A stretch of 64,000 bases of DNA, from IMG/VR virus record IMGVR_UViG_3300044475_000063, positions 32,001 to 96,000 of that record. One strand, written 5' to 3'. Of the stretch, positions 1,801 to 52,200 are shown in pieces. The stretch comes from a virus. Below the pieces are notes generated by a model that did not search any database, was not told the DNA's origin, and saw only the letters and a list, made by a program, of their open reading frames with translations. The translations under genes and the position numbers were made by a program. Every line of letters starts with the position of its first letter. Positions within the stretch are counted from its first letter, which is position 1.

Positions 1801-2099
1801 AAGTCACATACGGCGCACTCGCTGACTTAGTAGGCCAAGCAGAGCCTCTAGACCCAAGCAAGATGCAGTATCGGTCTGTCCCTGCTGTAGTGTGGGTATC
1901 GCGCAAGGATGCCTTAAAGTCTGAGCGAGCATGCAACCAGTGTGTGTTTAAGGGCCAGAAATCTAAAGTCTGTGTCCAAGCTGGGCAACTTGCGCGCCTT
2001 GCTGGTCACAACGACTGCGAGGATAGGGACGTTGAGACAGACAAGACTTTCATCTATGAGCTAGTCCCTACAGACCCACGCCAACTAACCATAGCCTAA
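1797..2099 (+). CDS. conserved hypothetical protein
   Basis: Near-identical to 51894-52196. Followed by a terminator. Confidence 0.65.
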   Translation: MKVTYGALADLVGQAEPLDPSKMQYRSVPAVVWVSRKDALKSERACNQCVFKGQKSKVCVQAGQLARLAGHNDCEDRDVETDKTFIYELVPTDPRQLTIA

Positions 2100-2103
2100 C
2101 CCT

Positions 2104-2126
2104 AAGCCGCCTAGTGCGGCTTTTTT
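2104..2126 (+). terminator. rho-independent terminator
   Basis: AAGCCGC-CTAGT-GCGGCTT hairpin followed by a T-run. Same element at 52201-52223. Confidence 0.75.
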
Positions 2127-2146
2127 GCAACCTCTTCATTTAGTTG

Positions 2147-2175
2147 TTGACGCGTGATAATCTTAGGGCTATGAT
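2147..2175 (+). promoter_or_regulatory. sigma70-like promoter
   Basis: TTGACG - 17 nt - TATGAT. Conserved at 52244-52272. Confidence 0.6.
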
Positions 2176-2212
2176 TCATACATCAGCAGCAAACAACCAA
2201 ACGGAGAAAATC

Positions 2213-2407
2213 ATGAATGCAGACCAAGCAAAAATTATCGGCAAACTCGTAACTGAATCGACCTTGGATTTTCTGGCATCGAAGCACAACACTACCGCCG
2301 TAGTAATTGCCGATCTGGTGCGCGCTGGTCATGAAAACATCAGCAAACAGTTTTATAAACTGATGCAACTAGGTTTGCAACAGGCTATTGTTGAATACAC
2401 TATCTAA
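2213..2407 (+). CDS. hypothetical protein (64 aa)
   Basis: ATG preceded by a ggag RBS. The ORF-track start at 2144 overlaps the promoter. Confidence 0.5.
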   Translation: MNADQAKIIGKLVTESTLDFLASKHNTTAVVIADLVRAGHENISKQFYKLMQLGLQQAIVEYTI

Positions 2408-2447
2408 CCCACCCAGCGCCTTCGGGCGCTACCTGAAAGGATGAATC

Positions 2448-2657
2448 ATGTTTGATGATTACGAAGACGAGCCAGAAGCAAAGCGTATTTTTGATATGGC
2501 CGATCAGTTGGATGATCGATTGGATGATTATGCGCTTGAGCGCTGCAAATCGTCGGAGCACGTTATACGCGGTGGCAATCATGGGCGCGTGTACACCTTT
2601 CACGATGGGAGCAAACTGACCACGGCTGAAACTGGCTATGTTGGTTGCGAATACTGA
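2448..2657 (+). CDS. hypothetical acidic protein (69 aa)
   Basis: aaagga RBS. Its homolog in copy B (52598-52806) has lost the ATG. Confidence 0.55.
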   Translation: MFDDYEDEPEAKRIFDMADQLDDRLDDYALERCKSSEHVIRGGNHGRVYTFHDGSKLTTAETGYVGCEY

Positions 2658-2731
2658 TTGACCGGCCCGCTAGACGGGCCTAAGCCACTAGAACCTAGCG
2701 CAATGGTGCGCTGGTATATTAAGGAGGAAGT

Positions 2732-2920
2732 ATGGATTGGCAGCCTATTGAAGTTTATGACGCGCTCAAAGTTAAGCCAAAAATGGCGGTGTTTCGATTT
2801 GAACCAGTTCCAAGCAAAAATGGTCGGGGCTTGTCTTTGCCGGAGCATTTTGAAATGAAAAGGACTTTCGGCTCTCGTGTCTGCACCCATTTCGTTGAGC
2901 TTCCACAGATTCAAAAATAG
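2732..2920 (+). CDS. hypothetical protein (62 aa)
   Basis: aaggagg RBS upstream of the ATG. Confidence 0.5.
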   Translation: MDWQPIEVYDALKVKPKMAVFRFEPVPSKNGRGLSLPEHFEMKRTFGSRVCTHFVELPQIQK

Positions 2921-2971
2921 CACCTAGCAACCAGCAGTAGAATAAACCAAGTTCACTAAGCGGAGGCTGTC

Positions 2972-3160
2972 ATGATTAGTATCGGTCAGATGGTGCGTGT
3001 TCTGAATTCGGATAATGTGTGTCGTCTTGAATCATGGGAGCGCGATGCTATCCATATGATTCATTCTAAGTCTGTAAATGGGCTGCGGCAGAATCTGCTA
3101 GACCTCCGCGAGTGCCAACTTATCATCACTATTTTTAACAGGGTATATCAAAATGCGTAA
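2972..3160 (+). CDS. conserved hypothetical protein
   Basis: Homolog of 53398-53586. ggagg RBS. Confidence 0.55.
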   Translation: MISIGQMVRVLNSDNVCRLESWERDAIHMIHSKSVNGLRQNLLDLRECQLIITIFNRVYQNA

Positions 3161-3251
3161 ATTGAATTGGGGATTAATCATCGCGCTTCTCACTTGCGTG
3201 ATTATCTGGACTGCTTTTGGCGTGCGTATGTACAGGTACTATCATGGCTAA
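3153..3251 (+). CDS. small single-pass membrane protein (32 aa)
   Basis: MRKLNWGLIIALLTCVIIWTAF... Overlaps both neighbours. Conserved small ORF at 53579-53677. Confidence 0.4.
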   Translation: MRKLNWGLIIALLTCVIIWTAFGVRMYRYYHG

Positions 3252-3453
3252 GATCGGACGACCATCGCACCTTGAAGCAGTAGCTTCTGCGCTTCCTGGC
3301 ACTCGCAACCAGATCGCCAAGCGAGTAGGAATCAGCGCAGCTTGTGTAGGCCGCTTGCTGCGCGTTCTGGAAGCGAATCGGGCGGTTTATGTGGTTACGC
3401 ATGCCGTTCCGAAATGCGGTCCTAAAATGCCTGTATTCGCTTTGAGGCGCTAA
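3244..3453 (+). CDS. small helix-turn-helix DNA-binding protein
   Basis: MAKIGRPSHLEAV...RNQIAKRVGISAACVGRLLRVL. Homolog at 53875-54096. Confidence 0.6.
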   Translation: MAKIGRPSHLEAVASALPGTRNQIAKRVGISAACVGRLLRVLEANRAVYVVTHAVPKCGPKMPVFALRR

Positions 3454-3843
3454 ATGGACCGCGTTGAAATGATCCTCAAGGCCATGCCAGCAACGCGCCT
3501 TGAGATTCAGCTACAAACGCGCATGGGCAAAAGCACGGTGCAGCATATCATTGAGCGATTGCATGAGCGCGGTTGGATTCACATCAGCGGCTGGGAGCGT
3601 ATCCTCAAGAACGGAACGGGCAAGTTCGTCATGCGATATAAAGCAGGTCAAGGCACTGACAAGCCCTGCAAGCTGGAACCAATGCCCCGCGCCGAGCTTG
3701 AAAAGCGCCGCCGCAAAAAGCTTCTCAAGACCGGCGAAATAGAAGAACGCAACAAGCGCAACCTCATGCGGTACTACGAGAAGCGAGCAAAGGAAAAATC
3801 CAAGGCAAAGCCTCAAACGTGGCTTTCTGCGCTTGGTGTGTGA
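3454..3843 (+). CDS. winged-helix-like DNA-binding protein with basic C-terminus
   Basis: TRLEIQLQTRMGKSTVQHIIERLHERGWI. Related to 54089-54502. Confidence 0.55.
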   Translation: MDRVEMILKAMPATRLEIQLQTRMGKSTVQHIIERLHERGWIHISGWERILKNGTGKFVMRYKAGQGTDKPCKLEPMPRAELEKRRRKKLLKTGEIEERNKRNLMRYYEKRAKEKSKAKPQTWLSALGV

Positions 3844-3851
3844 AAAACCTC

Positions 3852-3880
3852 TTGCAATTGGGTTTTTGCTGACCTAGAAT
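3852..3880 (+). promoter_or_regulatory. sigma70-like promoter in front of hairpin RNA
   Basis: TTGCAA - 17 nt - TAGAAT. Confidence 0.55.
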
Positions 3881-3905
3881 TCTAACTGTCAACGCCTGCC
3901 AGCGA

Positions 3906-4046
3906 AGACGAAAAAGAAAATGACTCTGTAGCAGCCCCAAGGTTTTTTGGTGGATCGCAAAATGGAGTGTGGACGTAACAGAGTCCGTTCACACTTCAGG
4001 TTGGCAGACCCGATCCACCAAAGCATCTTGGGGCTTTTTTTCGTCT
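3906..4046 (+). ncRNA. candidate ~150-nt rod-like sRNA ending in an intrinsic terminator
   Basis: Nested pairings: 3906-3915/4037-4046, 3934-3941/4027-4034, 3946-3957/4011-4022, 3964-3975/3986-3997. U7 run at 4035-4041. No ORF. Confidence 0.5.
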
Positions 4047-4271
4047 GCACTGTCTGAATTGACTAGCCTATCGTCGGGAACGAAAGCAACAGGGCGATAG
4101 CGTGAATACTGGAACTGTGGCAAAGCAAGGGAAGCACCAGAATGAGGCGTCGAAGATAGCACCTCACTTGCGCAAGGCTGTCGGGTCAGCGATTCCTCAA
4201 TGGATACGTTGTGATGGGCCTTAGCTAAGTCTAGGTCCGCTCAAACCTCTTGGATAATACGAAAGATAAGA

Positions 4272-4970
4272 ATGAACCTGATGCTTGTAAATACTAAAGA
4301 ACAGACCATGACAAGCAAGGAAATGGCTGAGCTTACAGAAAAGCGCCATGACAGCGTCAAACGGACCATTGAAAACCTTGCTTCTACTGGCGTGATCGGC
4401 CAACCACAAATTGTGGATGGAGAAAAAGCAGGCAACAACGTTGTTGAAAAGCTATATTTGTTTGGGAAGCGTGACAGCTATGTGATCGTTGCCCAGCTTT
4501 CGCCGCTGTTCACTGCCCGACTTGTAGACCGCTGGCAAGAGTTGGAATCCCGAGAATCCTCGGTAGATGGCTTTGAGATTCCCAAGACTTTTGCAGAGGC
4601 ATTGCGGCTTGCTGCTGACCAGCAAGAGACGATTGCAAAACAGGCCTTGCAGATTGAGACGAATGCGCCAAAGGTTGCATTTGCCGAAGCAATTCGCGCC
4701 ACTGAGGGCGTTTGCAGCGTTGAGAAGATCGCAAAAACGCTTGGCTGGGGGCGTAACAAGTTTTTCGACAGGCTGCGCACTGATGGCATTCTGATGGCTA
4801 ACAACCTGCCATATCAGAAGTACATTGACCGCGAGTATTTCACCGTCATTGAGCAGGAACCATACACGGATAGTAAAGGAGTCGTGCACCCTACGTTCAC
4901 GACTCGTGTAACGGGCGCTGGACAGGTGTTCCTTGCCAAAAAGTATGCAAACATCATGGGTGTAGTATGA
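4272..4970 (+). CDS. antirepressor-type regulator (Rha-like N-domain plus KilAC/ANT-like C-domain)
   Basis: N-terminus TSKEMAELTEKRHDSVKRTIENL. C-terminus IAKTLGWGRNKFFDRLRTDGIL...YFTV. Both recognised by eye. Confidence 0.7.
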   Translation: MNLMLVNTKEQTMTSKEMAELTEKRHDSVKRTIENLASTGVIGQPQIVDGEKAGNNVVEKLYLFGKRDSYVIVAQLSPLFTARLVDRWQELESRESSVDGFEIPKTFAEALRLAADQQETIAKQALQIETNAPKVAFAEAIRATEGVCSVEKIAKTLGWGRNKFFDRLRTDGILMANNLPYQKYIDREYFTVIEQEPYTDSKGVVHPTFTTRVTGAGQVFLAKKYANIMGVV

Positions 4971-5272
4971 CTACATTGCCTGATTGGATTCCTGCCGATG
5001 CGTGGGCCGGATACGTTGAAATGCGCAAGAAAAAGCGCGCCGTGATGACTGAGCGCGCTACCGAGCTACGCATTAAAGACCTTGCCAAGCTGCGCGATGC
5101 AGGGCAAGACGTAGGCGCGGTCTTAGATCAATCGACTGCGAACGGCTGGACTGATGTGTATCCGGTGAAAGAGCGCCGTGTCGAGCCGCGCAACCAGTTC
5201 GACACTTCGCGCCTTGGAAAGCACGGGCAGGCTACCGCAAATAACGCACTTGATTGGTTGGAGGGGAAATGA
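4967..5272 (+). CDS. hypothetical protein (replication-region)
   Basis: Start overlaps the previous stop. Function unknown. Confidence 0.55.
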   Translation: MTTLPDWIPADAWAGYVEMRKKKRAVMTERATELRIKDLAKLRDAGQDVGAVLDQSTANGWTDVYPVKERRVEPRNQFDTSRLGKHGQATANNALDWLEGK

Positions 5273-5433
5273 AATACATAATTATTTATAGCGATGGCTG
5301 TTACGAAAAAGCGGGTAGAGGAACTGGTTTTCCCACTACTGAAAAAGATGAGGCAAAAGTTTTTGATTCTGAAGATGATGCTCATGAATATTGCGCGTGG
5401 TTGATAGAGGCAAAAGTTATTCCGTTGAAATAA
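5269..5433 (+). CDS. small hypothetical protein (54 aa), AT-rich
   Basis: ATGA overlap with the upstream stop. TAA lies 1 nt before the next ATG. Below the ORF-track cutoff. Confidence 0.35.
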   Translation: MKYIIIYSDGCYEKAGRGTGFPTTEKDEAKVFDSEDDAHEYCAWLIEAKVIPLK

Positions 5434-5434
5434 T

Positions 5435-6067
5435 ATGATTGATAATCTAGAAGAAAAGCGCCGCTTCGCCTCGCTCATGACTGCCCTTGCTGACTATTAC
5501 GAGAAGTCGCTTTCTAAAGGTGTCCTGTCTCTCTATTGGGAAGGGCTGCGCCAGTATGACTATGAGGCAATCGAAAAGGCCGCATGGGCGCATACGCAAC
5601 TACCAGACGAGGCGGGGCGCTGGATGCCCAAGGTCAGCGACCTAAACAAGATGCTGGCGGGGCGCACCTCTGACCAAGGGCAGAGTGCATGGAGCAAGGT
5701 TGATCGCGCCGTGCGCACCATTGGCCCTTATAGCGACGTTGCTTTTGACGATCCGATTATCCACCGAGTTATTCAGGAAATGGGCGGCTGGATTCATCTT
5801 TGCGGACAAGACGAGAAACAATGGCCTTTCACAGCAAAAGAATTTGTTACGCGCTACCAGTCATACAAAATGACCGGTGATATTCCAGAACATGCGGGCT
5901 ATTTGACAGGAATCGCCTCATCGCAAAATGAGCATTCAGGTAATAAACAAAAGCGCGAGATTCATTTAATAGGCGATAAACAAAAAGCAATCGAATTAAT
6001 CCTTGGCGAGAAAAAGAAAGTCGAATCGCTAGGTTTATCAGTTCCAAAAGCAGCAGACGCTATTTAA
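5435..6067 (+). CDS. hypothetical replication-module protein
   Basis: 210 aa. The last residues VPKAADAI and downstream 39 nt are shared with 56592-56786 (mosaic joint). Confidence 0.55.
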   Translation: MIDNLEEKRRFASLMTALADYYEKSLSKGVLSLYWEGLRQYDYEAIEKAAWAHTQLPDEAGRWMPKVSDLNKMLAGRTSDQGQSAWSKVDRAVRTIGPYSDVAFDDPIIHRVIQEMGGWIHLCGQDEKQWPFTAKEFVTRYQSYKMTGDIPEHAGYLTGIASSQNEHSGNKQKREIHLIGDKQKAIELILGEKKKVESLGLSVPKAADAI

Positions 6068-6079
6068 AAGGAGAAGGAA

Positions 6080-6280
6080 GTGAAGAAAAACGAATACCCT
6101 TATTTGCAAATTATTGTTCACCACGGTCCGACAAATTCAACATCGATAACTGGCGATGAAGGAGTTATTGCTGCTGGGGTTTCATATCTTCCTCGGTCAA
6201 TGCAAAACAAACTTAAGGTGGAAACAATCAAGCGCTGGTCACGATTCATTAAAAGCAAATCAAAAGGAGAAGGAAAATGA
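6080..6280 (+). CDS. hypothetical protein (66 aa)
   Basis: GTG start after an aaggagaaggaa RBS. Confidence 0.45.
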   Translation: MKKNEYPYLQIIVHHGPTNSTSITGDEGVIAAGVSYLPRSMQNKLKVETIKRWSRFIKSKSKGEGK

Positions 6281-6471
6281 AGAAATCTCGTCTTGCATCA
6301 GCAATCAAAGAAGCAAAGCGGTTTTTAGAAATTGCAGAAACCGTAGAAATTGATCCGGACAGCCGTAATGATTACATCTACAGAAGCAAAGAATCGGCAT
6401 CTGTTCGCCGCGCTAGTATGGATTTGACTAATGCACTTGTTGAATTGCGTAAAGGAGATTACACAAAATGA
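6277..6471 (+). CDS. hypothetical protein (64 aa)
   Basis: aaggagaaggaaa RBS. Overlaps the previous stop. Confidence 0.5.
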   Translation: MKKSRLASAIKEAKRFLEIAETVEIDPDSRNDYIYRSKESASVRRASMDLTNALVELRKGDYTK

Positions 6472-6701
6472 GCAAAGCGAAATTAACCGACTGGTTCCCT
6501 GCTGATGTTAAGCCGGTGCATGTGGGTGTGTATGAGGTTCTTTATGAGAATGGCTGCTTTGGTAGCCGATATCGATACTGGAATGGCGTTCGGTTTTGCT
6601 ATCAATGTATGAATTCTCAGAAAGCTTTTCAAAAAAGGAACAATCACACTGGGCTTGACGCCTTTGTATCTTGGCGCGGCATCGCTGAAAAACCAAACTA
6701 A
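6468..6701 (+). CDS. conserved hypothetical protein
   Basis: Homolog of 56800-57033 (WFPADVKPVHVG...WRG.AEKPN). Confidence 0.6.
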   Translation: MSKAKLTDWFPADVKPVHVGVYEVLYENGCFGSRYRYWNGVRFCYQCMNSQKAFQKRNNHTGLDAFVSWRGIAEKPN

Positions 6702-6713
6702 AGGAGAATCACA

Positions 6714-7088
6714 ATGTACACTTCTGGCCGACTGATATACCAAGAGGATAGTGATGTATATACGCACATACTTCGTGATGTGACGGGCAATCGCATCATA
6801 CATCAAGGTCCGCAGGATTCTCGCGGTGAGGCTGAGGCAAATGCGCGAAGGCTTGCCGCATGTTGGAACGTTTGCGATGGGCTTGAAACTGCTGACCTTG
6901 AGGTAGGTGCGACGCTTGGAGATATTTGCGCCGATAGAAACGGCCTTGTAATCAAACTAGGTAAAGCGCAAGAAAAACTAGACATGGCCCGATCTATGCT
7001 GGAAGAGGCTTTAGATACATTTGACGACAACCCAGCAGAGGGCCATGAAATTGCAGACCGTATCCGTAGCTTTTTGGAGGTTAAATGA
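6714..7088 (+). CDS. hypothetical protein (124 aa)
   Basis: aaaggag RBS. Confidence 0.55.
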   Translation: MYTSGRLIYQEDSDVYTHILRDVTGNRIIHQGPQDSRGEAEANARRLAACWNVCDGLETADLEVGATLGDICADRNGLVIKLGKAQEKLDMARSMLEEALDTFDDNPAEGHEIADRIRSFLEVK

Positions 7089-7435
7089 GCAATGCAGAAC
7101 TATTGACTCTGGCAGCTAATGCCGCAGGATTGAAAGTCTTTAGCGTTACTCATCGTGGCATGGGTGGCTACAGTGACGATACTTTGCTCGGCTTGATTAT
7201 TGCGGATAGCGTTGGAACTCTATGGAATCCGCTAGAGAATGATTCTCAGGCGCTGCGCTTGGCGGTTGATTTGGGATTGCGATTGACACTGCCTAAATAC
7301 AAAGGATTTGGCACGACTGCCGATCATCAGGCGGATGGTATTGCTGGTTGCACGGCTTTCCGAGATGACCCAATGGCGCAGACGCGAGAGGCTATTGTGC
7401 GCGCTGCCGCCGAAAAAGGAAGGGCTATGCAATGA
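7085..7435 (+). CDS. hypothetical protein (116 aa)
   Basis: ggagg RBS and ATGA overlap. Confidence 0.55.
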   Translation: MSNAELLTLAANAAGLKVFSVTHRGMGGYSDDTLLGLIIADSVGTLWNPLENDSQALRLAVDLGLRLTLPKYKGFGTTADHQADGIAGCTAFRDDPMAQTREAIVRAAAEKGRAMQ

Positions 7436-7854
7436 AGGTTAAATCTTCCCGATTAATGGGTGTTAATGATATCGACGATTTGTTCAAGGCCAAGGCGCGC
7501 TTGATGCCTGATGATGTGAGCGAGATTCAGCTTAGGGTGCTTCTGGCGCTCGATTCGGCCAAGCGCTCACGCTGCCCACCAGGCCTCGCAAACCTGCTTA
7601 TCAAGCACATGGTCATGGCTGCTGCAATCGGTAGCCAGATGCGAGACCAAAGCTTCTACAATCTGGCGCAAAGGGCCTATGAGGCGCTTTACAACGCTTG
7701 CATGCGAGATACGGTGGACCTTGATCTAACAACCGGCGAGTACAGCGTAATCAAGCGAACGATTGCGCTATACTTGAACCATCTGCCTAAAGTCGAGCGC
7801 GGCTTGTTTGAGTTTGCAAGCAATCATGCTCAGAAAGTTTTAGCGCAAGGTTAA
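7432..7854 (+). CDS. conserved hypothetical protein, last early-right gene (possible late regulator, by position only)
   Basis: Homolog of 57342-57764. Both copies precede the tRNA/packaging region. Confidence 0.6.
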   Translation: MKVKSSRLMGVNDIDDLFKAKARLMPDDVSEIQLRVLLALDSAKRSRCPPGLANLLIKHMVMAAAIGSQMRDQSFYNLAQRAYEALYNACMRDTVDLDLTTGEYSVIKRTIALYLNHLPKVERGLFEFASNHAQKVLAQG

Positions 7855-7856
7855 AA

Positions 7857-7890
7857 ATAGCGGCTAATTTAATAATTAGCCGCTATTTTT
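7857..7890. terminator. bidirectional terminator hairpin
   Basis: 13-bp stem ATAGCGGCTAATT/AATTAGCCGCTAT flanked by A-run and T-run, between convergent genes. Confidence 0.75.
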
Positions 7891-8400
7891 CTATATTTCT
7901 ATATCAGCCCAGCTTTTCCCAAGTTTTATCATGCTTACGGTCGAATGGTGAACATTGAAGAGTTTTCCTAGCTCTTTGTTCGACATTCTAATCATAGAGG
8001 CTAGCTTTATATATCTAGCCTCTTCTTTGGTTAAGATTGATCTAGGATTCAACTCGCCAAAAATAGGTCGGCATGGCGATCTGCCTTTTGAAACCATATC
8101 ATTTGAATTGTCTTGTGCAGTACCAAGAAAAAGATGATTTGGGTTGGTACAGATAGGGTTATCACATTTATGGCATACCATAAAATCACCCGGCTCTATA
8201 CCAAAATGCAAAGCATAAGAAATTCTATGCGCGAATACAGATTGTCCGCGCTTGCCAACATGGGCAAGCCTCGCGTATCCCTTTTTGTCTACGAAACCAT
8301 TCCAAGACCAGCAATTGTCTTGCTTGACAACCTTTGACAGGTATCTCTGTTCTATTTTTGACAGAGGATCATTGATAAGAGGTAAAATAAGAATAGCCAT
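7891..8400 (-). CDS. HNH homing-type endonuclease with C-terminal HTH
   Basis: CWxW...GYAR...HR..Y...CHKCDNP.C.NP.HL..GT...N motif. GGAG RBS before the ATG at 8400 (ORF-track start 8448). AT-rich. Absent from copy B. Confidence 0.8.
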   Translation of the reverse strand: MAILILPLINDPLSKIEQRYLSKVVKQDNCWSWNGFVDKKGYARLAHVGKRGQSVFAHRISYALHFGIEPGDFMVCHKCDNPICTNPNHLFLGTAQDNSNDMVSKGRSPCRPIFGELNPRSILTKEEARYIKLASMIRMSNKELGKLFNVHHSTVSMIKLGKSWADIEI

Positions 8401-8493
8401 GAAGACTCCATGAAAGTCATTTGTGGTTAAAAGCCAACACGTGTGCAACCACTGTTGGCTTTGTCATTCTAACTCAGATACAATGAATTTGTC

Positions 8494-8569
8494 GCGGGGA
8501 TAGCTCAGTTGGTAGAGTCTCTGATTTCCAATCAGATTGTCGTCGGTTCAAGCCCGATTCCCCGCTCCA
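8494..8569 (+). tRNA. tRNA-Gly (anticodon UCC)
   Basis: 76 nt hand-folded cloverleaf: 7-bp acceptor, GCTC/GAGT D-stem, TCTGA/TCAGA anticodon stem, loop TTTCCAA, T-loop TTCAAGC, encoded CCA. Confidence 0.85.
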
Positions 8570-8574
8570 AGAAT

Positions 8575-8708
8575 TAGCGAAGGCAGATAGCCATGAACAA
8601 AAGCGCGTGCGCAAGTAGTCATGCTGGCATACTGGAAGTAGCTAAAGCAAAGCCGCTAATGCGTTATTAGGAATTGCGCCACACAGTTCGGAAACTGCGG
8701 CATGTGGC
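8575..8708 (+). ncRNA. conserved structured RNA module M1 (unknown class)
   Basis: No ORF. Nucleotide-level conservation with 58540-58672. Helix GCCACA/TGTGGC encloses hairpin CAGTT-CGGA-AACTG. Confidence 0.4.
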
Positions 8709-8718
8709 AAGAATAGTT

Positions 8719-9001
8719 GGTCCGATACCGCAGGGGCGCTCGGGACAATAAACGCCCCAGCATAAGCGCCGCCCTCCTTTCCCCAGCTATCGCTAGTGGG
8801 CGCAACAAGTAATTAGGCGTGATTATGCAGAGCCAAGTACAAGGGCGCAGAGCGTGGAAGCCGCTAGTTGTTTGTCTCGCAAGAGACGCCACATAAAACC
8901 AGCCCGTGACGCCCTATTGCAGGGCATATGAGCGAACGAAGTAAGGGCGGCAGTCTTTGCATCTTAGTAGGCCAAGGAAACGTTGGTTGGTTTTATGTGG
9001 T
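8719..9001 (+). ncRNA. conserved structured RNA module M2 (unknown class)
   Basis: 5' two-thirds conserved with 59160-59330. 3' closing helix GCCACATAAAACCA/TGGTTTTATGTGGT corresponds to a different but still complementary helix in copy B. Confidence 0.45.
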
Positions 9002-9086
9002 GCAATGCTCGGGGATTTTTTTGTCTATTGCCTATCTAGAGTAGAATGTCAAGACAGAATTCACCATCACAGATTCAAGGCAAAAC

Positions 9087-9509
9087 ATGGCACTTACTCC
9101 AAAGCAAGCACTATTCGTCAAAGAATACCTAATCGACCTGAATGCAACTCAGGCCGCGATTCGTGCTGGTTATTCGGAAAAGACGGCTTACTCTATTGGT
9201 GAAGAAAACCTGAAGAAGCCTGAAATTGCAGAGGCGATTGCCGAGCATCAACAGGCCAAGGCAAAGAAGCTAGATATCACTGTTGATACGATACTTGCGG
9301 AGCTTGAGGAAGCGCGTCAATTGGCTCTAGAAACTGGTAAGGCTGGCCCAGCAGTTCAGGCTTCGATGGGTAAGGCAAAGATTTTAGGTTTGGAAAAGCA
9401 AGTCATCGATCATACATCTAGCGATGGCACTATGACGCCTAAAGCGCCTATCGTTGTTGACAAGGATACTGCTGCGCAGGTGGCGGCGAATATCAATGGT
9501 GGCATCTGA
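9087..9509 (+). CDS. terS: terminase small subunit (Terminase_2/P27-like)
   Basis: LTPKQALFVKEYLIDLNATQAAIRAGYSEKTAYSIGEENLKKPEI signature. Immediately upstream of TerL. Confidence 0.85.
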   Translation: MALTPKQALFVKEYLIDLNATQAAIRAGYSEKTAYSIGEENLKKPEIAEAIAEHQQAKAKKLDITVDTILAELEEARQLALETGKAGPAVQASMGKAKILGLEKQVIDHTSSDGTMTPKAPIVVDKDTAAQVAANINGGI

Positions 9510-10926
9510 CGACCCAGAGGTAATCAAGGCAGTAACTCGCGCACTATGCCTTGAGGATCACCTATTCTTTACTCGCTACTTCTTTAAGCTGCGCGAGGGG
9601 ATTAAATTCCGCGTCAACTGGCACCATAAGCGCATGGCTGAGGCTATCCAGCGCGTGATTGATGGGCATTGCAAGCGGCTAATCATCAATGTGCCTCCTG
9701 GCTCGTCTAAGACGGAAATGGCGGTTATTAACCTGATTGCGCGTGGGCTTGCGATTAATCCTCGTGCGCGCTTCCTGCACCTATCGTACTCTGCTGACCT
9801 TGCCGAACTGAATAGCGCCAAGGCAAAGGAGCTAATCACGTCCAGCGAGTATCAAGAGTTATTCACGATCCCGATTAAGACCGACTCCAAGGCGCGGGGC
9901 CGCTGGAACGTGGTTGATGAAAAAGGCGTGTCTATCGGCGGATGCTATGCGACCTCGACGCTTGGTCAGGTAACTGGCTTTCGTGCCGGTCACATGGCTG
10001 ATGGGTTTCAGGGCGCGATCATCATCGATGATCCATTAAAGCCTGTAGACAGCCTATCAAAGACCAAGCGCGATGCAGTCAACAATGCCTTTATCAATAC
10101 CGTGCAGAGCCGCAAGGCATCGCCTGATACTCCTATCATCGTCATCATGCAACGCCTCGCAGACGAGGATTTAACGGGCTTCCTGTTGAATGGCGGCGAC
10201 GGCAAAGAGTGGGAGCATGTTTGCATCCCAGCTATTGACGACGATTCCGGCAAGAGCTATTGGCCTGAGAAAGAGCCTATCGAATCGCTCTTGCAACTTA
10301 AGGAAAAGGGTAACTTCACCTTTGAGGGGCAGTACCAGCAGCGACCATATGTGCTAGGTGGTGAAATTATCAGGGGCGAATGGTTCGGGCGCTATAGCGA
10401 ACTGCCGCCGCAGAAATGGTGTGTGCAGCGCGCCGTATTCGCTGATACAGCCATGAAAACAGGCGAGCAGAACGACTACACGGTATTTATTGATGCCGCG
10501 CTCTATACCGATGGCAAGGTACGTATCCTTAACCTATGGCGCAAGAAAGTGAATGCCGTGGGCCTTCTTCAATTAGCCAAAGAGGTTTGGGCCTCGACAG
10601 AAGGGCTAGCTAGCGCCATGTACATTGAAGACAAGGCATCTGGCACCGGCCTAATCCAGCAGCTACAGGAAAACGACGTATTTATCCCGGTTATCCCAAT
10701 CGAGCGCACCAAAGACAAGCTAACCCGCGTCATGGAAGTGCAGCCAAGGATTCAGGCTGGCGGCGTTTTGCTGCCTACCTATGCGCCTTGGGTAACTGAG
10801 TTCATTAGCGAATGTGAGGCATTCACTGCAAACGATAGCCATAAACACGATGACCAAGTAGACCCGCTTGTAGATGCTGTAAATACGTTCATGGCTAACA
10901 GTTTCAACCTATCAGCCTTGGTTTAG
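9496..10926 (+). CDS. terL: terminase large subunit
   Basis: Walker-A-like VPPGSSKTE, IIIDDP Walker B, C-terminal nuclease region. Start at MVASDD overlapping the terS end. Unrelated to the copy B TerL. Confidence 0.85.
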   Translation: MVASDDPEVIKAVTRALCLEDHLFFTRYFFKLREGIKFRVNWHHKRMAEAIQRVIDGHCKRLIINVPPGSSKTEMAVINLIARGLAINPRARFLHLSYSADLAELNSAKAKELITSSEYQELFTIPIKTDSKARGRWNVVDEKGVSIGGCYATSTLGQVTGFRAGHMADGFQGAIIIDDPLKPVDSLSKTKRDAVNNAFINTVQSRKASPDTPIIVIMQRLADEDLTGFLLNGGDGKEWEHVCIPAIDDDSGKSYWPEKEPIESLLQLKEKGNFTFEGQYQQRPYVLGGEIIRGEWFGRYSELPPQKWCVQRAVFADTAMKTGEQNDYTVFIDAALYTDGKVRILNLWRKKVNAVGLLQLAKEVWASTEGLASAMYIEDKASGTGLIQQLQENDVFIPVIPIERTKDKLTRVMEVQPRIQAGGVLLPTYAPWVTEFISECEAFTANDSHKHDDQVDPLVDAVNTFMANSFNLSALV

Positions 10927-10945
10927 ATAAGAGAACATAAATAAA

Positions 10946-10963
10946 AACCCGCCGAAGCGGGTT
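10946..10963 (-). terminator. terminator of the reverse-strand cassette
   Basis: AACCCGC-CGAA-GCGGGTT hairpin. The T-run (TTTTTATTT) follows only on the minus strand. Confidence 0.65.
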
Positions 10964-10970
10964 GATTATG

Positions 10971-11345
10971 TTAGCCGTCGCCGGAGCCGTAGCCGTAGCC
11001 GGAGCCGTAGCCGTAGCCGGAGCCGGAGCCGTAGCCGTAGCCGGAGCCGGAGCCGTAGCTGTCGCCGGAGCCGTCGCCGTAGCCGGAGCCGTAGCCGGAG
11101 CCGTCGCCGGAGCCGGAGCCGTAGCCGTAGCCGGAGCCGGAGCCGTAGCTGTCGCCGGAGCCGTCGCCGTAGCCGGAGCCGTAGCCGGAGCCGTCGCCGG
11201 AGCCGTAGCCGGAGCCGTAGCCGGAGCCGGAGCCGTAGCTGTCGCCGGAGCCGTCGCCGGAGCCGTCGCCGGAGCCGTCGCCGGAGCCGTCGCCGGAGCC
11301 GTAGCCGTAGCCGGAGCCGTCAGTAAAAGTTTTATTGGTAGCCAT
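10971..11345 (-). CDS. (Gly-X)n repeat protein, X = Ser/Tyr/Asp (124 aa)
   Basis: MATNKTFTD then 115 aa with Gly at nearly every second position (57 of 115; the few exceptions are DSY motifs). AAGGA RBS 8 nt before the ATG. Overlaps the upstream gene end. Terminator downstream. Confidence 0.55.
   Translation of the reverse strand: MATNKTFTDGSGYGYGSGDGSGDGSGDGSGDGSGDSYGSGSGYGSGYGSGDGSGYGSGYGDGSGDSYGSGSGYGYGSGSGDGSGYGSGYGDGSGDSYGSGSGYGYGSGSGYGYGSGYGYGSGDG
10974..11318. repeat. hexanucleotide tandem array (GCC-GNN)n, 345 nt, with ~90-nt higher-order repeats
   Basis: Direct reading: gccgga/gccgta/gccgtc/gctgtc units without interruption. Open on both strands. Confidence 0.95.
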
Positions 11346-11706
11346 CAATGCTGTCCTTTGCAGCTTGGGTAGCTGGGATCAGTTCGCAGATGCCAGTCAG
11401 ATAAATTTCTGGGTTGACCACATCGACTTTCCCGCCGTCTTTTTTAAGGCCGTGTTGAGCAACGCCCGATAGCGCAACGCCGTCTTTAGCTTTCCACGAC
11501 CACAGGCGGCGCGAGTTTTTCAGAACTGCGGTATCGCCGTCAACGCTTACGACTTCGCCAGCATGCACACCAGCGGCATAGCAGCGTGCGATTACGTACT
11601 TGCCAACGAATGGATGAGGTAATACGGCTTGATATACTTGAGCCGACGCGCCAAACAAGGCGGCAAGTTCTTTAGCTTGGCCGATGGTGAGTTCGTTAAT
11701 GTTCAA
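11332..11706 (-). CDS. hypothetical protein (124 aa), partner of the repeat gene
   Basis: Reverse-strand ORF with aggagaag RBS. The RRLWSW motif is reminiscent of a phage DUF family. Absent from copy B. Confidence 0.6.
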   Translation of the reverse strand: MNINELTIGQAKELAALFGASAQVYQAVLPHPFVGKYVIARCYAAGVHAGEVVSVDGDTAVLKNSRRLWSWKAKDGVALSGVAQHGLKKDGGKVDVVNPEIYLTGICELIPATQAAKDSIDGYQ

Positions 11707-11841
11707 TTTACTTCTCCTATGGTTTTGCCTTTCGGCGTTGTGCTACGGATGACTAATGATAACTAAGGTTTCTCTATCTGTATATTTGAAATAAACTATA
11801 AAATACTAGAGTAAAATAGAGAAATACTATGAGGGGTTAAG

Positions 11842-13197
11842 ATGGGCCGACCATTGGGAAGTAAGAACAAGCCGAAAGAGCCGCAGCAGAATGTAGTTGT
11901 GACGGACGGGTACGCTGAGGCATTTACGGGAGCAGGAACAAATCGGGACCGTAGCAGCTACACGCGCATCGGGCGCACCGCCATGCTGCAACAGATGGAA
12001 TGTTCGCTACTGTACTTGGGTGATGGCTTTGCGCGCAAGATTGTGGACGTTCCAGCAGAGGAAATGACGCGCTCGGGCCTTGAGCTTGAGGATTTAGAGG
12101 ACGAGGAACTAGAGCAATTCGTCATGGCGCGTCTTGATGATCTGGACGCCATGCGGCACTTTAACGATGCGGTGGCGTGGTCTAGGTTGCACGGCGGCGC
12201 TGTGATGATCTTCGGCCTGAATGATGGCGGCACGCTTGATGTGCCTCTTAATCCCGAAGGGATCAAGAGCGTTGAATTTCTCCGAGTCTATGACCGCTGG
12301 CAAGCGACTATCCAGACCCGCGTGACCGATCCGAACAGCCCGGACTACGGCAAGCCGGACATCTGGCTCATTTCGCCGCTTGATGGTGCGCAACCGTACA
12401 AAGTGCATAACTCGCGCCTTTGGATGTTCGACGGCGACCGCATTCCAGACTTTGACCGCAATGCCAATCTCGGCTGGGGCGCATCGGCCCTGCAAGCCTG
12501 CCAAGATCAGCTTAAGCGCCTCGGCATGGGCCACCAATGGACGCTGGCGATTCTTGAGAGGGCGCAACAGGCAGTTCATAAGATTCCACGCCTCGGCCAA
12601 ACGCTGCAATCCCCAGGCGGCGAAGCAATGGTACGCAAGCGCGTGGACGTTGTAGACATGGTGCGCGGCATCCTGAATACGATTGTTGTAGACGGAGAAG
12701 AGGATTACCAAGTAACAACAGCTACGCTAACCGGCTATACGGACGTGCTAGACCGCTTTGCAGAGGCTTTGGCTGCTACTAGTGGCATCCCAGTATTTAA
12801 GCTGATGGAGCGCACGCAAGGGGGGTTGAGCAATACCGACAAGGGCGCTAGCGATGCTTGGTATGCTCGCATTGAGTCATGGTGGAATAATCTGCTTCGT
12901 AAGCCTCAAGACTTGCTAATCCAGTACATCATGATTTCTAAGAACGGCGAAGCGCCAGATTACAAGCTGTGCATGGCCCCGCTGTCGGTACTGAGCGCGA
13001 CTGAGCAAGCAGAGGTTGATTTGAAGAAAGCACAGGCATTGCAGGCTCGTGCAGATGCAGCTATTAAATTCATGACTGGTGGTGTTCTTGCGGCGGATGA
13101 TGTACGCCCTTCTATCGCGGAAGAATATGGTCTGAAAGAAGATAGCCAAGCGCCGGGGATTATTGAACCAGATGACGGCATGACAGAAAATGGCTAA
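11842..13197 (+). CDS. portal protein (DUF1073/HI1409-like)
   Basis: 451 aa after the terminase. Near-identical core to 62234-63592. Confidence 0.85.
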   Translation: MGRPLGSKNKPKEPQQNVVVTDGYAEAFTGAGTNRDRSSYTRIGRTAMLQQMECSLLYLGDGFARKIVDVPAEEMTRSGLELEDLEDEELEQFVMARLDDLDAMRHFNDAVAWSRLHGGAVMIFGLNDGGTLDVPLNPEGIKSVEFLRVYDRWQATIQTRVTDPNSPDYGKPDIWLISPLDGAQPYKVHNSRLWMFDGDRIPDFDRNANLGWGASALQACQDQLKRLGMGHQWTLAILERAQQAVHKIPRLGQTLQSPGGEAMVRKRVDVVDMVRGILNTIVVDGEEDYQVTTATLTGYTDVLDRFAEALAATSGIPVFKLMERTQGGLSNTDKGASDAWYARIESWWNNLLRKPQDLLIQYIMISKNGEAPDYKLCMAPLSVLSATEQAEVDLKKAQALQARADAAIKFMTGGVLAADDVRPSIAEEYGLKEDSQAPGIIEPDDGMTENG

Positions 13198-14203
13198 ACA
13201 ATGGTTATATCCTCATGCTCAAGAGAGGCAACTTGATAAAGCGATGCAGGCTTATGCACGTCAGGTGATGGCTGACGTTGATGCTGTTATAGTATCCAAC
13301 ATGGGTTACTTCATGTCGAAGGCTAAGCTTGATGCTGAATCTAGCGAAGAACCAGAAGAACAGGAGTCCTGGAGTGAAGAGCTAGCACTTTTAGTGGCTA
13401 TTCTTTTGACGCGATCTGCTAGCTATGATTTCTCAGCAATCTACACTGCTGGTAGAAACATTGCCGCATTTAATGATTATCAATTCAAATCAGTAATTAA
13501 TTCTGTATTAAACGTTGTTCCGCGAATAGCAGAGCCTTTTTTAAACGGAATTCTTTCTGATTGGTATAAAAAAACCACGGATTTAGTTAAAGACAAAGCT
13601 TCTGAATACATAAAGTCAGTAGAGGCAATTATTAGAAATCAGTCGGCAATTGAATCAACTCAAAAAGCAGCAAAAGAAGTAATAGCAAAGAGAAAAGAAG
13701 TTTTCTCAGGCAAAATGACATTCACTGCTATTAATGAAACAGGGATGCTGAACTCAATGCTGCAACGTAGCCGCTTGATGGCAATTGGAGCGCTGTCGTA
13801 CATCTGGACTACTCAACGGGACGAGCGAGTTAGGCCGCTTCACCAGCAAAGGCAAGGTAAGATGTTTTCATGGACTGTTCCTCCATCAGATGGGCATCCA
13901 GGTATGCCGATTCGTTGCCGATGCATCGCTACGCCAGTAATTGATTTCGATTTTGAAGGACAATTCCCAACTGATCCAGCAAAAGTTTTTGAGCTTCGGC
14001 AATATCGACGTGGAGTTTCAGAAAATCAGCGCCTAGAAAGAAATAAAGATTATGGCGCAGCATTTAGAAGTGGGAAATTGACGCCCGGGGAAATTATTTC
14101 TCTTAACAGAGATAAGACCTCTGCACGATCTGTTGTAAACTCCTTATTGACAAGCGGGCGACTCACCCAATCCCAACTAAACAATCTCTACAAGGATTTG
14201 TGA
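13190..14203 (+). CDS. head morphogenesis protein (Mu F / SPP1 gp7-like)
   Basis: RDERVRPLHQQRQGKMFSW...GHPGMPIRCRCIA motif. Follows the portal. Confidence 0.8.
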   Translation: MAKQWLYPHAQERQLDKAMQAYARQVMADVDAVIVSNMGYFMSKAKLDAESSEEPEEQESWSEELALLVAILLTRSASYDFSAIYTAGRNIAAFNDYQFKSVINSVLNVVPRIAEPFLNGILSDWYKKTTDLVKDKASEYIKSVEAIIRNQSAIESTQKAAKEVIAKRKEVFSGKMTFTAINETGMLNSMLQRSRLMAIGALSYIWTTQRDERVRPLHQQRQGKMFSWTVPPSDGHPGMPIRCRCIATPVIDFDFEGQFPTDPAKVFELRQYRRGVSENQRLERNKDYGAAFRSGKLTPGEIISLNRDKTSARSVVNSLLTSGRLTQSQLNNLYKDL

Positions 14204-52196: not shown

Positions 52197-52200
52197 CCCT

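What the first reader, a model, noticed from the sequence alone, without database searches (positions are those of the whole stretch)
10946..11841. A reverse-strand cassette between TerL and portal (copy A only) encodes a 115-residue near-strict (Gly-X)n protein built from hexanucleotide repeats
In copy B the TerL stop and the portal start are 48 nt apart (62185/62234). In copy A, 915 nt separate them. That gap carries two minus-strand genes with an AT-rich promoter-like region (11707-11841) and their own minus-strand terminator (10946-10963). The distal gene (10971-11345) encodes MATNKTFTD followed by 115 residues in which about every second residue is Gly and the rest are only Ser, Tyr or Asp (GSGYGYGSGDGSGD...). 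It is coded by an unbroken (GGC-NNC)n array with ~90-nt higher-order repeats. This composition resembles silk-like (Gly-X)n or Gly/Tyr-rich low-complexity proteins, and I know of no characterised phage function for it. The 6-nt unit should allow in-frame expansion and contraction. The upstream gene (11332-11706, RRLWSW motif) is translationally coupled to it. The position and opposite orientation are typical of a moron expressed independently of late genes.
Basis: partly seen in the sequence, partly recalled or inferred. Interest (0 to 1): 0.7.

Follow-up and report, generated by a model that had tools for sequence, protein, structure and literature searches.

The report
Phage Sm-like protein with glycine-repeat partner
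The gap between the terminase and portal genes holds a real two-gene phage cassette, a small Sm-like barrel protein followed by a fast-changing (Gly-Ser/Tyr/Asp)n disordered protein; the two genes sit together in every related phage I could check, and nobody has described their function.

Summary
Window 10946-11841 carries, on the minus strand, a promoter-like site, a 124-aa gene (Pfam DUF6948), a 124-aa (Gly-X)n gene that overlaps it by 14 nt, and a terminator.

- **Conserved pair.** In 163 of 163 related loci with enough sequence, a (Gly-[Ser/Tyr/Asp])n ORF lies right after DUF6948. These include isolated Ralstonia, Pectobacterium, Iodobacter, Vibrio and Chlorobiaceae phages and a common human-gut phage lineage.
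- **Coding frame.** The minus-strand frame is the selected one. Arrays built from GGT, GGG, NNT or AGT codons encode the same composition, while the antisense "AVAG" frame changes.
- **Fast array turnover.** Pectobacterium phages with 100% identical flanks carry arrays of different length and order.
- **Folds.** DUF6948 models confidently as an Sm/LSm-like small beta-barrel. The repeat protein models as disordered.
- **Prior knowledge.** No defence, PHROG, NCBIfam, Rfam or literature record explains the pair. A VIPR-like guide-RNA reading was tested and rejected.

Best guess (inferred): an oligomeric Sm-like scaffold plus a FUS/LARKS-like low-complexity partner, expressed apart from late genes, that builds a multivalent assembly for host takeover or anti-defence. 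It is an uncharacterised, widespread phage module.

The parts
11756..11784 (-). Promoter-like site (TATACA, 17-nt spacer, TATCAT) inside the AT-rich region 11707-11841
   Evidence: The consensus scan found one site where 0.7 were expected. The -10-like element and the SD/TTG start are kept in the close relative L109. This is a pattern match only; transcription has not been shown.
11332..11706 (-). Gene for a 124-aa DUF6948 protein with a predicted Sm/LSm-like small beta-barrel (TTG start, SD AGGAG at 11718-11714)
   Evidence: Pfam PF22253 hit with E 7.9e-26, 90.5 bits against a cut-off of 27. There are 1797 homologues in the 90% clusters and 1904 50%-identity clusters at E<=1e-3. The AF2 model has pLDDT 86.5. 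The top 29 Foldseek PDB hits are all Sm/LSm chains, with probability about 1 and TM up to 0.71.
10971..11345 (-). Gene for a 124-aa protein: the leader MATNKTFTD followed by (Gly-[Ser/Tyr/Asp])n. It overlaps the upstream gene's stop by 14 nt.
   Evidence: ORF and sequence are shown. The same architecture is found in 163/163 evaluable relatives. AF2 on the single sequence gives pLDDT 38 and no secondary structure.
10974..11318 (-). Hexanucleotide (GGC-NNC) array of 345 nt (115 codons) with a roughly 90-nt higher-order repeat
   Evidence: TRF periods 12 and 18. Direct-repeat family D1 has a 94% copy at +90 nt.
10946..10963 (-). Intrinsic terminator hairpin (AACCCGCTTCGGCGGGTT followed by TTTATTTAT) 7 nt after the stop codon
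   Evidence: Found. Relatives also have a GC hairpin right after the array: the Pectobacterium phages carry GGAAACCCCCGAAAGGGGGTTT, and L033 and L032 have similar hairpins.
9454..10926 (+). Left flank: large terminase subunit (not part of the cassette)
   Evidence: Matches Terminase_6C and phrog_38. It is unrelated to the TerL of copy B.
11842..13197 (+). Right flank: portal protein (not part of the cassette)
   Evidence: Phage_portal_3 hit with E 2.4e-76. It is 84% identical to the copy B portal.

Best explanation
**Shown.** This is a self-contained phage accessory cassette that encodes two proteins which always travel together.

- The first protein, DUF6948, is a strongly conserved small beta-barrel with an Sm/LSm-like predicted fold.
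- The second is an intrinsically disordered copolymer (Gly-X)n. Across relatives X is about 40% Ser, 30% Tyr and 24% Asp, in random order. It is encoded by a hexanucleotide array.
- The array is reshuffled, lengthened and shortened by slippage or unequal recombination much faster than its flanks change. Selection still holds its composition and reading frame.

**Inferred.** The two proteins act as one complex.

- The Sm-like protein probably forms an oligomeric ring or scaffold, possibly one that binds RNA or ssDNA.
- The repeat protein probably supplies a multivalent tail in trans. This tail is aromatic-rich, resembles FUS or LARKS sequences, and is mostly acidic.
- The arrangement would resemble the Hfq core with its disordered C-terminal domain, SSB with its Gly-rich linker, or Lsm4 and SmD with their low-complexity tails.
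- Together they would build a higher-order assembly or condensate early in infection, or from the prophage. That assembly would sequester or reorganise a widely conserved host component or nucleic acid, serving host takeover or anti-defence.

My confidence that it is a real, conserved, protein-coding pair with a fast-evolving array is about 0.95. My confidence in the scaffold-plus-low-complexity-tail mechanism is about 0.3. The confidence value given for this explanation (0.35) is for the explanation as a whole.
For: - **Obligate linkage.** 87 of 93 loci in the first set and 76 of 80 in the second have the (Gly-X)n ORF at or within about 100 nt of the DUF6948 stop. All 10 exceptions have fewer than 80 nt of contig left. 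Distant members show the same pairing, including a Chlorobiaceae phage, spring-water phages and human-gut phages. In one of them (L103) the gene order is reversed.
- **Protein-level selection.** Most arrays use GGC with NNC codons. Others use all GGT (L047, L051, L090), all GGG (L044), NNT (L033 and others) or AGT for Ser (L088), and all encode the same composition. Each array is internally uniform, which indicates concerted evolution.
- **Fast turnover.** Ymer and Amona have identical DUF6948 genes and an identical 300 nt downstream, yet their arrays are 222 and 204 nt with different order. The gut lineage keeps a C-terminal domain at 89% identity or more while total length ranges from 183 to 263 aa.
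- **Fold.** AF2 gives pLDDT 86.5. Foldseek hits are SmD3, SmB, Lsm1-7 and archaeal Sm proteins.
- **Disorder.** The repeat protein models with pLDDT 38.
- **Composition.** The window protein has 19 [G/S]Y[G/S] motifs in 115 residues. Every array contains aromatic residues (at least 9% of X). X order is random, with observed/expected ratios of 0.91-1.17.
- **Independent expression.** The cassette has its own promoter-like site and terminator and is oriented against the late genes here, in L108 and in the Pectobacterium phages.
- **Context.** Elsewhere it lies in early regions next to ERF, DNA methylases and Lar-like restriction alleviation genes.
- **Tether-like behaviour.** In gut phages the array sits between a short N-terminal peptide and a globular domain, which fits a role as a variable tether or sticker segment.
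Against: - There is no direct evidence for a physical complex, oligomerisation, nucleic-acid binding or condensate formation.
- The Sm resemblance is fold-level only. Foldseek E-values are about 0.01. There is no Pfam LSM hit at E<=1, and no Sm protein appears in a PDB profile search. Small beta-barrels serve many functions.
- The disorder call rests on a single-sequence AF2 run, which is weak evidence.
- Codon homogeneity shows strong concerted evolution, so part of the apparent composition constraint could be mutational inertia.
- Gene-neighbourhood evidence is anecdotal, from about 10 contexts.
Confidence: 0.35

Rival explanations
1. Anti-defence decoy or mimic. The acidic, Tyr-rich flexible polymer, presented by DUF6948, imitates a nucleic-acid backbone or a substrate. 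It would soak up a conserved host factor such as a restriction or defence sensor, a nucleic-acid-binding protein or a modifying enzyme.
For: The window protein has a net charge of about -13. Asp and Glu make up a median 26% of X across arrays. The cassette lies near DNA methylases, a PAPS-reductase-family gene and Lar restriction-alleviation genes. Both lytic and temperate phages of many host phyla carry it.
Against: Some arrays have almost no acidic residues (L053 uses Asn, L023 has about 3%), so charge is not essential. There are no anti-defence family hits, although PADLOC covers defence systems rather than anti-defence proteins. No target is known.
Confidence: 0.15
2. Toxin-antitoxin, abortive-infection or superinfection-exclusion moron. 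One partner, for example the aggregation-prone repeat protein, is toxic, and the other neutralises it. The module would protect the lysogen or exclude rival phages.
For: The cassette has two small overlapping genes, its own promoter and its own terminator, and it lies against the late genes in a probable prophage. It is present in copy A and absent from copy B.
Against: There are no PADLOC, NCBIfam or Pfam toxin-antitoxin hits. Isolated phages carry the pair, several of them inside early operons. The extreme tolerance of array length (16-129 residues) is unusual for a toxin.
Confidence: 0.1
3. Slippery substrate or inhibitor of a host AAA+ protease or other threading machine. This would be analogous to the Gly-Ala repeat of EBV EBNA1, with the short basic N-terminal leader serving as the recognition tag.
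For: The protein is 50% Gly and the repeat length is variable. Short conserved Lys-containing leaders are seen: MA(T/S)NKxF, MSKLNKP and MSYLDKP. The target would be universal, which fits the broad host range. The EBNA1 comparison rests on established knowledge, not on a test run here.
Against: This reading gives the strictly linked Sm-like partner no role. Tyr at every fourth position should give good grip rather than slippage. Part of the leader's conservation is forced by the gene overlap.
Confidence: 0.07
4. The array works as RNA or DNA rather than as protein. It could be a VIPR-like non-contiguous guide (conserved GGY alternating with variable NN) or a repeat RNA bound by the Sm-like protein, in which case the ORF would be incidental.
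For: In most arrays Gly is GGC (91%) and only the two middle bases of the next codon vary. Phage-encoded GGY/NN tandem-repeat guide RNAs exist (bioRxiv 10.64898/2026.04.26.720920). Sm folds often bind RNA.
Against: The period is 6, not 5. The partner is not a RAMP or RRM protein. Three dinucleotides (TC, TA, GA) fill about 93% of the NN positions. Arrays with GGG or GGT for Gly and AGT for Ser keep the protein but not the RNA motif. The start codon, the SD sequence, the overlap with the upstream stop, and a stop codon right after the array are all conserved. In gut phages the array is an internal segment of a longer protein. There is no Rfam hit.
Confidence: 0.03
5. The plus-strand 'AVAG' ORF (10962-11372) is the real gene, or the array is a neutral simple-sequence expansion with no function.
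For: The antisense frame is open in the window. Gene callers pick the antisense ORF in some relatives (L107, L108).
Against: The antisense composition changes with synonymous sense codons, from Ala-[Gly/Val] to Thr-, Pro- or [Arg/Ile]-containing copolymers (derived from the codon tables). The sense composition stays fixed. The array is present in 163/163 evaluable relatives across very distant phages, so it is not a recent neutral expansion.
Confidence: 0.02

Closest known systems
Sm/LSm/Hfq proteins with low-complexity tails (Hfq core with its disordered acidic C-terminal domain; SmB, SmD1 and SmD3 RG tails; yeast Lsm4 prion-like tail used in P-body assembly)
   Same: DUF6948 has a predicted N-terminal helix followed by a five-stranded bent beta-barrel, and its best structural matches are Sm/LSm chains. 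It is paired with a Gly-rich disordered segment.
   Different: There is no Sm1/Sm2 sequence signature, and a helix is inserted between strands 3 and 4. The low-complexity part is a separate polypeptide with strict Gly-X alternation and is hypervariable. Ring formation and RNA binding are untested.
FUS-type low-complexity domains and LARKS ([G/S]Y[G/S] motifs that drive reversible hydrogels and condensates)
   Same: The composition is Gly, Ser and Tyr with no aliphatic or basic residues. There are 19 [G/S]Y[G/S] motifs in 115 residues. The model is disordered.
   Different: The alternation with Gly is strict. Asp replaces Gln. The protein is bacteriophage-encoded, encoded by a homogeneous hexanucleotide array and very short-lived in evolution. 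Phase behaviour is untested.
Silk fibroin heavy-chain (Gly-X)n blocks. GenBank annotates the Ralstonia phage NK-7 homologue as 'fibroin heavy chain-like protein'.
   Same: Gly alternates with a small or aromatic residue.
   Different: There is no Ala, no GAGAGS crystalline blocks and no signal peptide. The protein is about 50-140 aa, acidic and cytoplasmic by default. The match is in composition only.
Gly-Ala repeat of Epstein-Barr virus EBNA1 (from established knowledge)
   Same: It is a virus-encoded irregular (Gly-X)n copolymer whose length varies between isolates and which acts through bulk properties.
   Different: X is Ala there, and the repeat is internal to a large DNA-binding protein. 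It comes from a eukaryotic virus. No homology is implied.
VIPR systems (Vipr RAMP protein plus vrRNA built of YNNGG repeats; bioRxiv 10.64898/2026.04.26.720920)
   Same: Both are phage-encoded, with a small protein next to a tandem array that has invariant GGY and a variable dinucleotide.
   Different: VIPR arrays are pentamers, non-coding, use all 16 dinucleotides and pair with a RAMP-fold protein. Here the array is a hexamer, translated, uses three dinucleotides and pairs with an Sm-like protein.
Tandem-repeat-encoded disordered regions in mobile elements (Borg amino-acid tandem repeats, PMC9879509)
   Same: Perfect nucleotide repeats evolve rapidly and create compositionally biased disordered protein segments.
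   Different: Borg repeats arise independently in many unrelated genes. This repeat is a single ancient gene family that is always linked to one partner gene.

Membership tests
Pfam DUF6948 (PF22253) | Match to the family HMM above the gathering score | tested here: met
   90.5 bits against a cut-off of 27, E 7.9e-26, covering profile positions 1-85 of 85.
Sm/LSm/Hfq superfamily | N-terminal helix followed by a strongly bent five-stranded beta-barrel | tested here: met
   The AF2 model (pLDDT 86.5) has H8-22, E37-42, E46-56, E59-70, E98-103 and E107-111. The top 29 Foldseek PDB hits are all Sm/LSm chains, with TM (target-normalised) up to 0.71 and rmsd 2.9 A over 85 columns. This rests on a prediction, and E-values are only about 0.01.
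Sm/LSm/Hfq superfamily | Sm1/Sm2 sequence motifs or a match to the LSM or Hfq profiles | tested here: not met
   Only DUF6948 is reported by Pfam at E<=1. Neither the single-sequence nor the profile search of PDB sequences finds any Sm protein.
Sm/LSm/Hfq superfamily | Hexameric or heptameric ring and RNA binding | not testable with these tools
   No multimer prediction or biochemistry was available.
VIPR (Vipr plus vrRNA) | Non-coding array of pentameric YNNGG repeats with hypervariable NN | tested here: not met
   The period is 6, 12 or 18. TC, TA and GA fill about 93% of NN positions. The ORF is conserved and synonymous codons are swapped between arrays.
VIPR (Vipr plus vrRNA) | Adjacent RAMP (RRM-core) protein | tested here: not met
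   The neighbouring protein is an Sm-like beta-barrel of 124 aa.
FUS-like low-complexity / LARKS proteins | High density of [G/S]Y[G/S] motifs in a disordered Gly/Ser-rich segment | tested here: met
   There are 19 motifs in 115 residues (sequence). AF2 gives pLDDT 38 and no secondary structure. Aromatic residues are present in every array.
FUS-like low-complexity / LARKS proteins | Reversible self-assembly or phase separation | not testable with these tools
   This needs purified protein or imaging.
Silk fibroin-type (Gly-X)n | Gly-Ala/Ser crystalline blocks in a secreted, very large protein | tested here: not met
   Ala is 0.5% of X. There is no signal peptide in the 9-residue leader, and proteins are 53-138 aa.
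Phage moron (independently transcribed accessory cassette) | Own promoter and terminator, and variable presence or position among related phages | tested here: met
   Promoter-like and terminator-like sites flank the pair (pattern matches only). The cassette is absent from copy B. It lies beside a different neighbouring gene in the closest relative, L109, and in different genome positions in other phages.
Phage moron (independently transcribed accessory cassette) | Expression from the prophage or independent of late transcription | not testable with these tools
   No transcriptome data were available.
Known defence or toxin-antitoxin systems | Match to a PADLOC, NCBIfam or Pfam defence or toxin-antitoxin model | tested here: not met
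   No family matched either protein in PADLOC. NCBIfam gave only a non-significant hit at E 0.069.

The most novel reading that the evidence does not exclude
The DUF6948 plus (Gly-Ser/Tyr/Asp)n pair is a previously unrecognised, very widespread class of phage effector. An Sm-like ring would nucleate a tyrosine-driven protein, or protein-RNA, condensate or gel inside the infected bacterium. The slippage-prone array would act as a built-in tuner of valency, or as a fast-evolving interface in an arms race. If so, this would be a bacterial-virus counterpart of eukaryotic Sm/LSm plus prion-like-domain granule assembly.
Probability: 0.25. Interest if true: 0.9.

Novelty: new variant of a known kind. 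Interest (0 to 1): 0.72.

Why it matters
The pair is common, not a curiosity of one prophage.

- The DUF6948 profile finds about 1,900 clusters at 50% identity.
- Two scans of viral contigs found 153 and at least 530 related loci.
- One human-gut phage lineage alone has more than 2,000 length variants of the repeat protein.

No function, complex or phenotype has been reported for it. It links a conserved nucleic-acid-binding-type fold to one of the fastest-changing coding sequences seen in phage genomes. It could show how phages use low-complexity proteins.

There are also practical consequences.

- The arrays break short-read assemblies, so many contigs end inside them.
- They mislead gene callers, which sometimes pick the antisense ORF and produce names such as "fibroin-like" or "Serglycin".
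- They could serve as strain-level markers for phage populations.

Isolated, tractable phages carry the pair (Pectobacterium Ymer-group phages, Ralstonia NK-7, Iodobacter phiPLPE), so it can be tested directly.

Tried and rejected
- **DNA similarity.** Megablast of the region against phage and E. coli collections gave no match.
- **Family libraries.** PHROGs, PADLOC, NCBIfam and Rfam gave nothing informative for either gene or for the region. The Pfam TrAA12 hit for the repeat protein and the Serglycin hit for the gut homologue are below cut-off and are low-complexity artefacts.
- **PDB sequence searches.** DUF6948 gave only non-significant hits (S17 and uL24), and the repeat protein gave only low-complexity noise.
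- **Literature.** 'DUF6948', 'fibroin heavy chain-like' with phage, repeat peptide strings, and the Ymer-genus paper gave no description of the pair.
- **VIPR-like guide-RNA idea.** It arose from a chance literature hit. I examined it and rejected it on period, partner fold, the restricted dinucleotide set and synonymous codon swaps.
- **Source organism.** Attempts failed. Exact look-ups of window proteins were not on record. Seven minus-strand ORFs at 37-47 kb had no NCBIfam hits. The closest portal relatives in isolated phages are only 31-37% identical.
- **Gut-phage C-terminal domain.** The roughly 150-aa domain fused to the array in gut phages has no Pfam, PHROG, NCBIfam or PDB match, so it gave no functional clue.
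- **ClpX-tag idea.** A ClpX N-degron-like reading of the leader was considered. The match to published motifs is poor, so it is kept only as a low-probability rival.
Full report
**1. What is in the window**

TerL (9454-10926, +) and portal (11842-13197, +) are 915 nt apart. The gap carries the following features on the minus strand:

- A promoter-like site, TATACA-17-TATCAT, at 11784-11756.
- An SD sequence (AGGAG) and a TTG start at 11706.
- A 124-aa ORF ending at 11332.
- A second ORF starting at the ATG at 11345, inside the first gene. Its SD is AAGGA, and the overlap ATGGCTACCAATAA is 14 nt long. It ends at 10971.
- A GC hairpin with a T-run at 10963-10946.

The second product is MATNKTFTD followed by 115 residues of Gly-X. 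It uses 55 GGC, 26 TCC, 3 AGC, 19 TAC and 13 GAC codons. The three AGC codons replace Gly at 90-nt intervals and mark the higher-order repeat.

Copy B has a 48-nt TerL-portal spacer and no such cassette anywhere. However, its TerL is unrelated to that of copy A, while the portals are 84% identical. The cassette lies at a module boundary.

**2. The upstream gene**

The upstream gene matches Pfam DUF6948 (E 7.9e-26). The family is large:

- 1797 hits among 90% clusters.
- 1904 clusters at 50% identity with E<=1e-3, of which 760 have E<=1e-10.

It has no PHROG function, PADLOC or NCBIfam assignment, and no paper in the held library mentions it.

An AlphaFold2 model built on 51 homologues is confident (pLDDT 86.5). 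It shows an N-terminal helix, three long bent strands, an inserted helix, two more strands and a C-terminal helix. Foldseek against the PDB puts Sm/LSm chains in all of the top 29 places: SmD3, SmB, Lsm1-7, Lsm2-8 and archaeal Sm. Probability is about 1, TM reaches 0.71, and E-values are only about 0.01. Sequence-level searches do not find Sm proteins. I therefore call it Sm-like in fold but do not file it in the Sm family.

**3. The pair is obligate**

The first two relatives I fetched (L001, L002) are contigs that end a few dozen bases after DUF6948. They stop inside an ORF beginning MATNK(T/K)F(T/V)DGSGYGYG, with the same 14-nt overlap. This shows both conservation and that short-read assemblies break in the array.

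Isolated phages carry the pair:

- Ralstonia NK-7, where the partner is annotated 'fibroin heavy chain-like protein'.
- Seven Pectobacterium phages of the Ymer group.
- Iodobacter phiPLPE, where the partner is unannotated.
- Vibrio IKEMa6-1.
- Chlorobiaceae phage CV-1-33.

In a scan of viral and genome contigs with the window-type profile, 87 of 93 loci have the Gly-X ORF at the DUF6948 stop. The other six have 48 nt or less of contig left. In a second scan with the Pectobacterium-type profile, 76 of 80 have it, and the other four have fewer than 80 nt left. That is 163 of 163 evaluable loci.

Variants exist:

- Two tandem Gly-X genes (L046, L100).
- Gly-X upstream of DUF6948 (L103).
- A human-gut lineage in which a Gly-X segment lies between a short N-terminal peptide and a conserved domain of about 150 aa with unknown function. 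Here too the gene directly follows a short DUF6948 gene.

**4. Protein or nucleic acid?**

Most arrays are GGC-NNC (Gly is 91% GGC). This initially looked like a nucleotide-level constraint, and it recalled the recently described VIPR guide RNAs built from alternating GGY/NN motifs.

Per-array analysis settles the question. Each array is internally uniform, but different arrays use different synonymous codons:

- GGT throughout (L047, L051, L090).
- GGG throughout (L044).
- T-ending X codons (L033 and about 25 others).
- AGT for Ser (L088).

All encode the same Gly-[Ser/Tyr/Asp] copolymer. The neighbouring DUF6948 genes use ordinary mixed codons.

The antisense 'AVAG' frame becomes Thr-, Pro- or Arg/Ile-rich in those arrays, so it is not conserved. 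In addition:

- The period is 6, not 5.
- Three dinucleotides fill about 93% of the variable positions.
- The partner is not a RAMP protein.
- The start, SD, overlap and stop are conserved.
- In gut phages the array is internal to a longer protein.

The sense frame is the selected product. Codon uniformity reflects concerted evolution by slippage or unequal recombination.

**5. Evolutionary dynamics**

In the Ymer group, DUF6948 is 88-100% identical at the DNA level, while the partner is 53-89 aa with a different residue order. Ymer and Amona have identical DUF6948 genes and an identical 300 nt downstream, but arrays of 222 and 204 nt.

In the gut lineage the C-terminal domain stays at 89% identity or more, while total length runs from 183 to 263 aa.

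Across 85 non-redundant arrays:

- X is 40% Ser, 30% Tyr and 24% Asp, with minor Asn, Glu, Phe, Ala and His.
- Neighbour preferences are random, with observed/expected ratios of 0.91-1.17.
- Aliphatic, basic and Pro residues are nearly absent.
- Every array contains aromatic residues.
- A few arrays nearly lack acidic ones.

Complete arrays span 16-129 residues. AF2 gives no structure for the window protein (pLDDT 38). Function therefore seems to depend on bulk composition: Gly spacers, Tyr stickers and polar or acidic fillers, rather than on sequence.

**6. Context**

The cassette takes two forms. In the window, in L108 and in the Pectobacterium phages it is an oppositely oriented island inside structural genes. 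In L105, L106, L107, phiPLPE, L103 and L190 it lies co-oriented in early regions next to ERF, RecE/Bet and SSB genes, DNA methylases, a PAPS-reductase-family gene and Lar-type restriction alleviation genes.

In the closest relative, L109 (DUF6948 DNA about 90% identical), a different 575-aa gene lies between the cassette and portal. That 50-kb contig ends in the array.

The pair is thus a mobile accessory unit expressed apart from late genes. The range of associated hosts argues for a very general target. It includes phages isolated on Beta- and Gammaproteobacteria, a phage of a Chlorobiaceae host, phages from human-gut and oral samples, and contigs binned with Alphaproteobacteria and Planctomycetes genomes.

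**7. Mechanism**

*Shown:* a conserved, coupled two-protein unit; an Sm-like fold; a disordered Tyr/Ser/Asp/Gly copolymer under selection on its composition; and rapid array turnover.

*Inferred:* the two form a complex in which an oligomeric beta-barrel scaffold carries multivalent low-complexity tails supplied in trans. This would be comparable to the Hfq core plus its C-terminal domain, SSB plus its Gly-rich linker, or Lsm4 and Sm proteins plus their low-complexity tails. The Tyr-rich tails would drive higher-order assembly, and array length would set valency.

I rate this about 0.3. The rivals are:

- An anti-defence decoy or mimic (0.15). It is weakened by arrays that lack acidic residues.
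- A toxin-antitoxin or exclusion module (0.1).
- An EBNA1-like slippery protease substrate (0.07).
- An RNA or DNA element (0.03).
- The antisense ORF or neutral repeat (0.02).

**8. Verdict**

Comparative data make it more interesting than one window suggests. It is an uncharacterised, very widespread, obligate phage gene pair that combines a known fold type with an unusual hypervariable (Gly-X)n protein.

I class it as a new variant of a known kind, namely a small beta-barrel protein with a low-complexity partner, or equivalently a tandem-repeat disordered protein. There is a real chance that it represents a new functional class.

Noticed in passing
window 1-14000 versus 49400-64000: The window holds two related phage genome segments about 50 kb apart, at 75-98% DNA identity in blocks. 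Their portals are homologous but their terminase modules are completely different. This could be two tandem prophages or two strain variants joined in assembly. A near-identical relative of the DUF6948 protein lies on a 98-kb JGI contig and on a 50-kb Logan contig.
   Followed up: partly
window 8494-8569, 58377-58452, 58461-58534, 59975-60052: There are phage-borne tRNA genes: tRNA-Gly(TCC) in both copies, and tRNA-Arg(TCT) and a tRNA-Ile with the unusual anticodon AAT in copy B only. The tRNA-Gly reads GGA/GGG, not the GGC used by the array.
   Followed up: no
L101, L102, L190 (human-gut phages); proteins P0272-P0391: A common gut-phage lineage has the Gly-X array fused between an N-terminal peptide (MTLDEKIKAFL) and a conserved domain of about 150 aa with no known family. 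There are more than 2,000 variants of 183-263 aa, one of them named 'Serglycin' in nr. Its neighbours include a DNA methylase, a PAPS-reductase-family gene and Lar.
   Followed up: partly
L001, L002, L034, L050, L067, L083, L091, L109, L148, L173, L174, L185 and others: Many metagenomic contigs stop inside or just before the array, including contigs of about 50 kb that are probably whole genomes. The repeat therefore breaks short-read assemblies and is under-represented in protein databases.
   Followed up: partly
L107 2051-2350 (-), L108 5356-5604 (-), L103 1222-1794, L036, P0229: Annotation artefacts are caused by the array. Gene callers choose the antisense ORF. In MW202478 the annotated CDS runs through the array in the wrong frame and reads on into DUF6948. 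Apparent frameshifts into the Leu/Arg frame appear in L036 and P0229.
   Followed up: no
L046 3360-3760; L100 1668-2298; L103 1146-1791: Architectural variants of the module occur. L046 and L100 have two tandem Gly-X genes, each with its own leader. L103 has the Gly-X gene upstream of DUF6948. P0167 is a tandem double DUF6948 protein.
   Followed up: no
L054 and L065: In these loci a short array runs directly into unrelated coding sequence. These may be deletions, fusions or chimeric assemblies.
   Followed up: no
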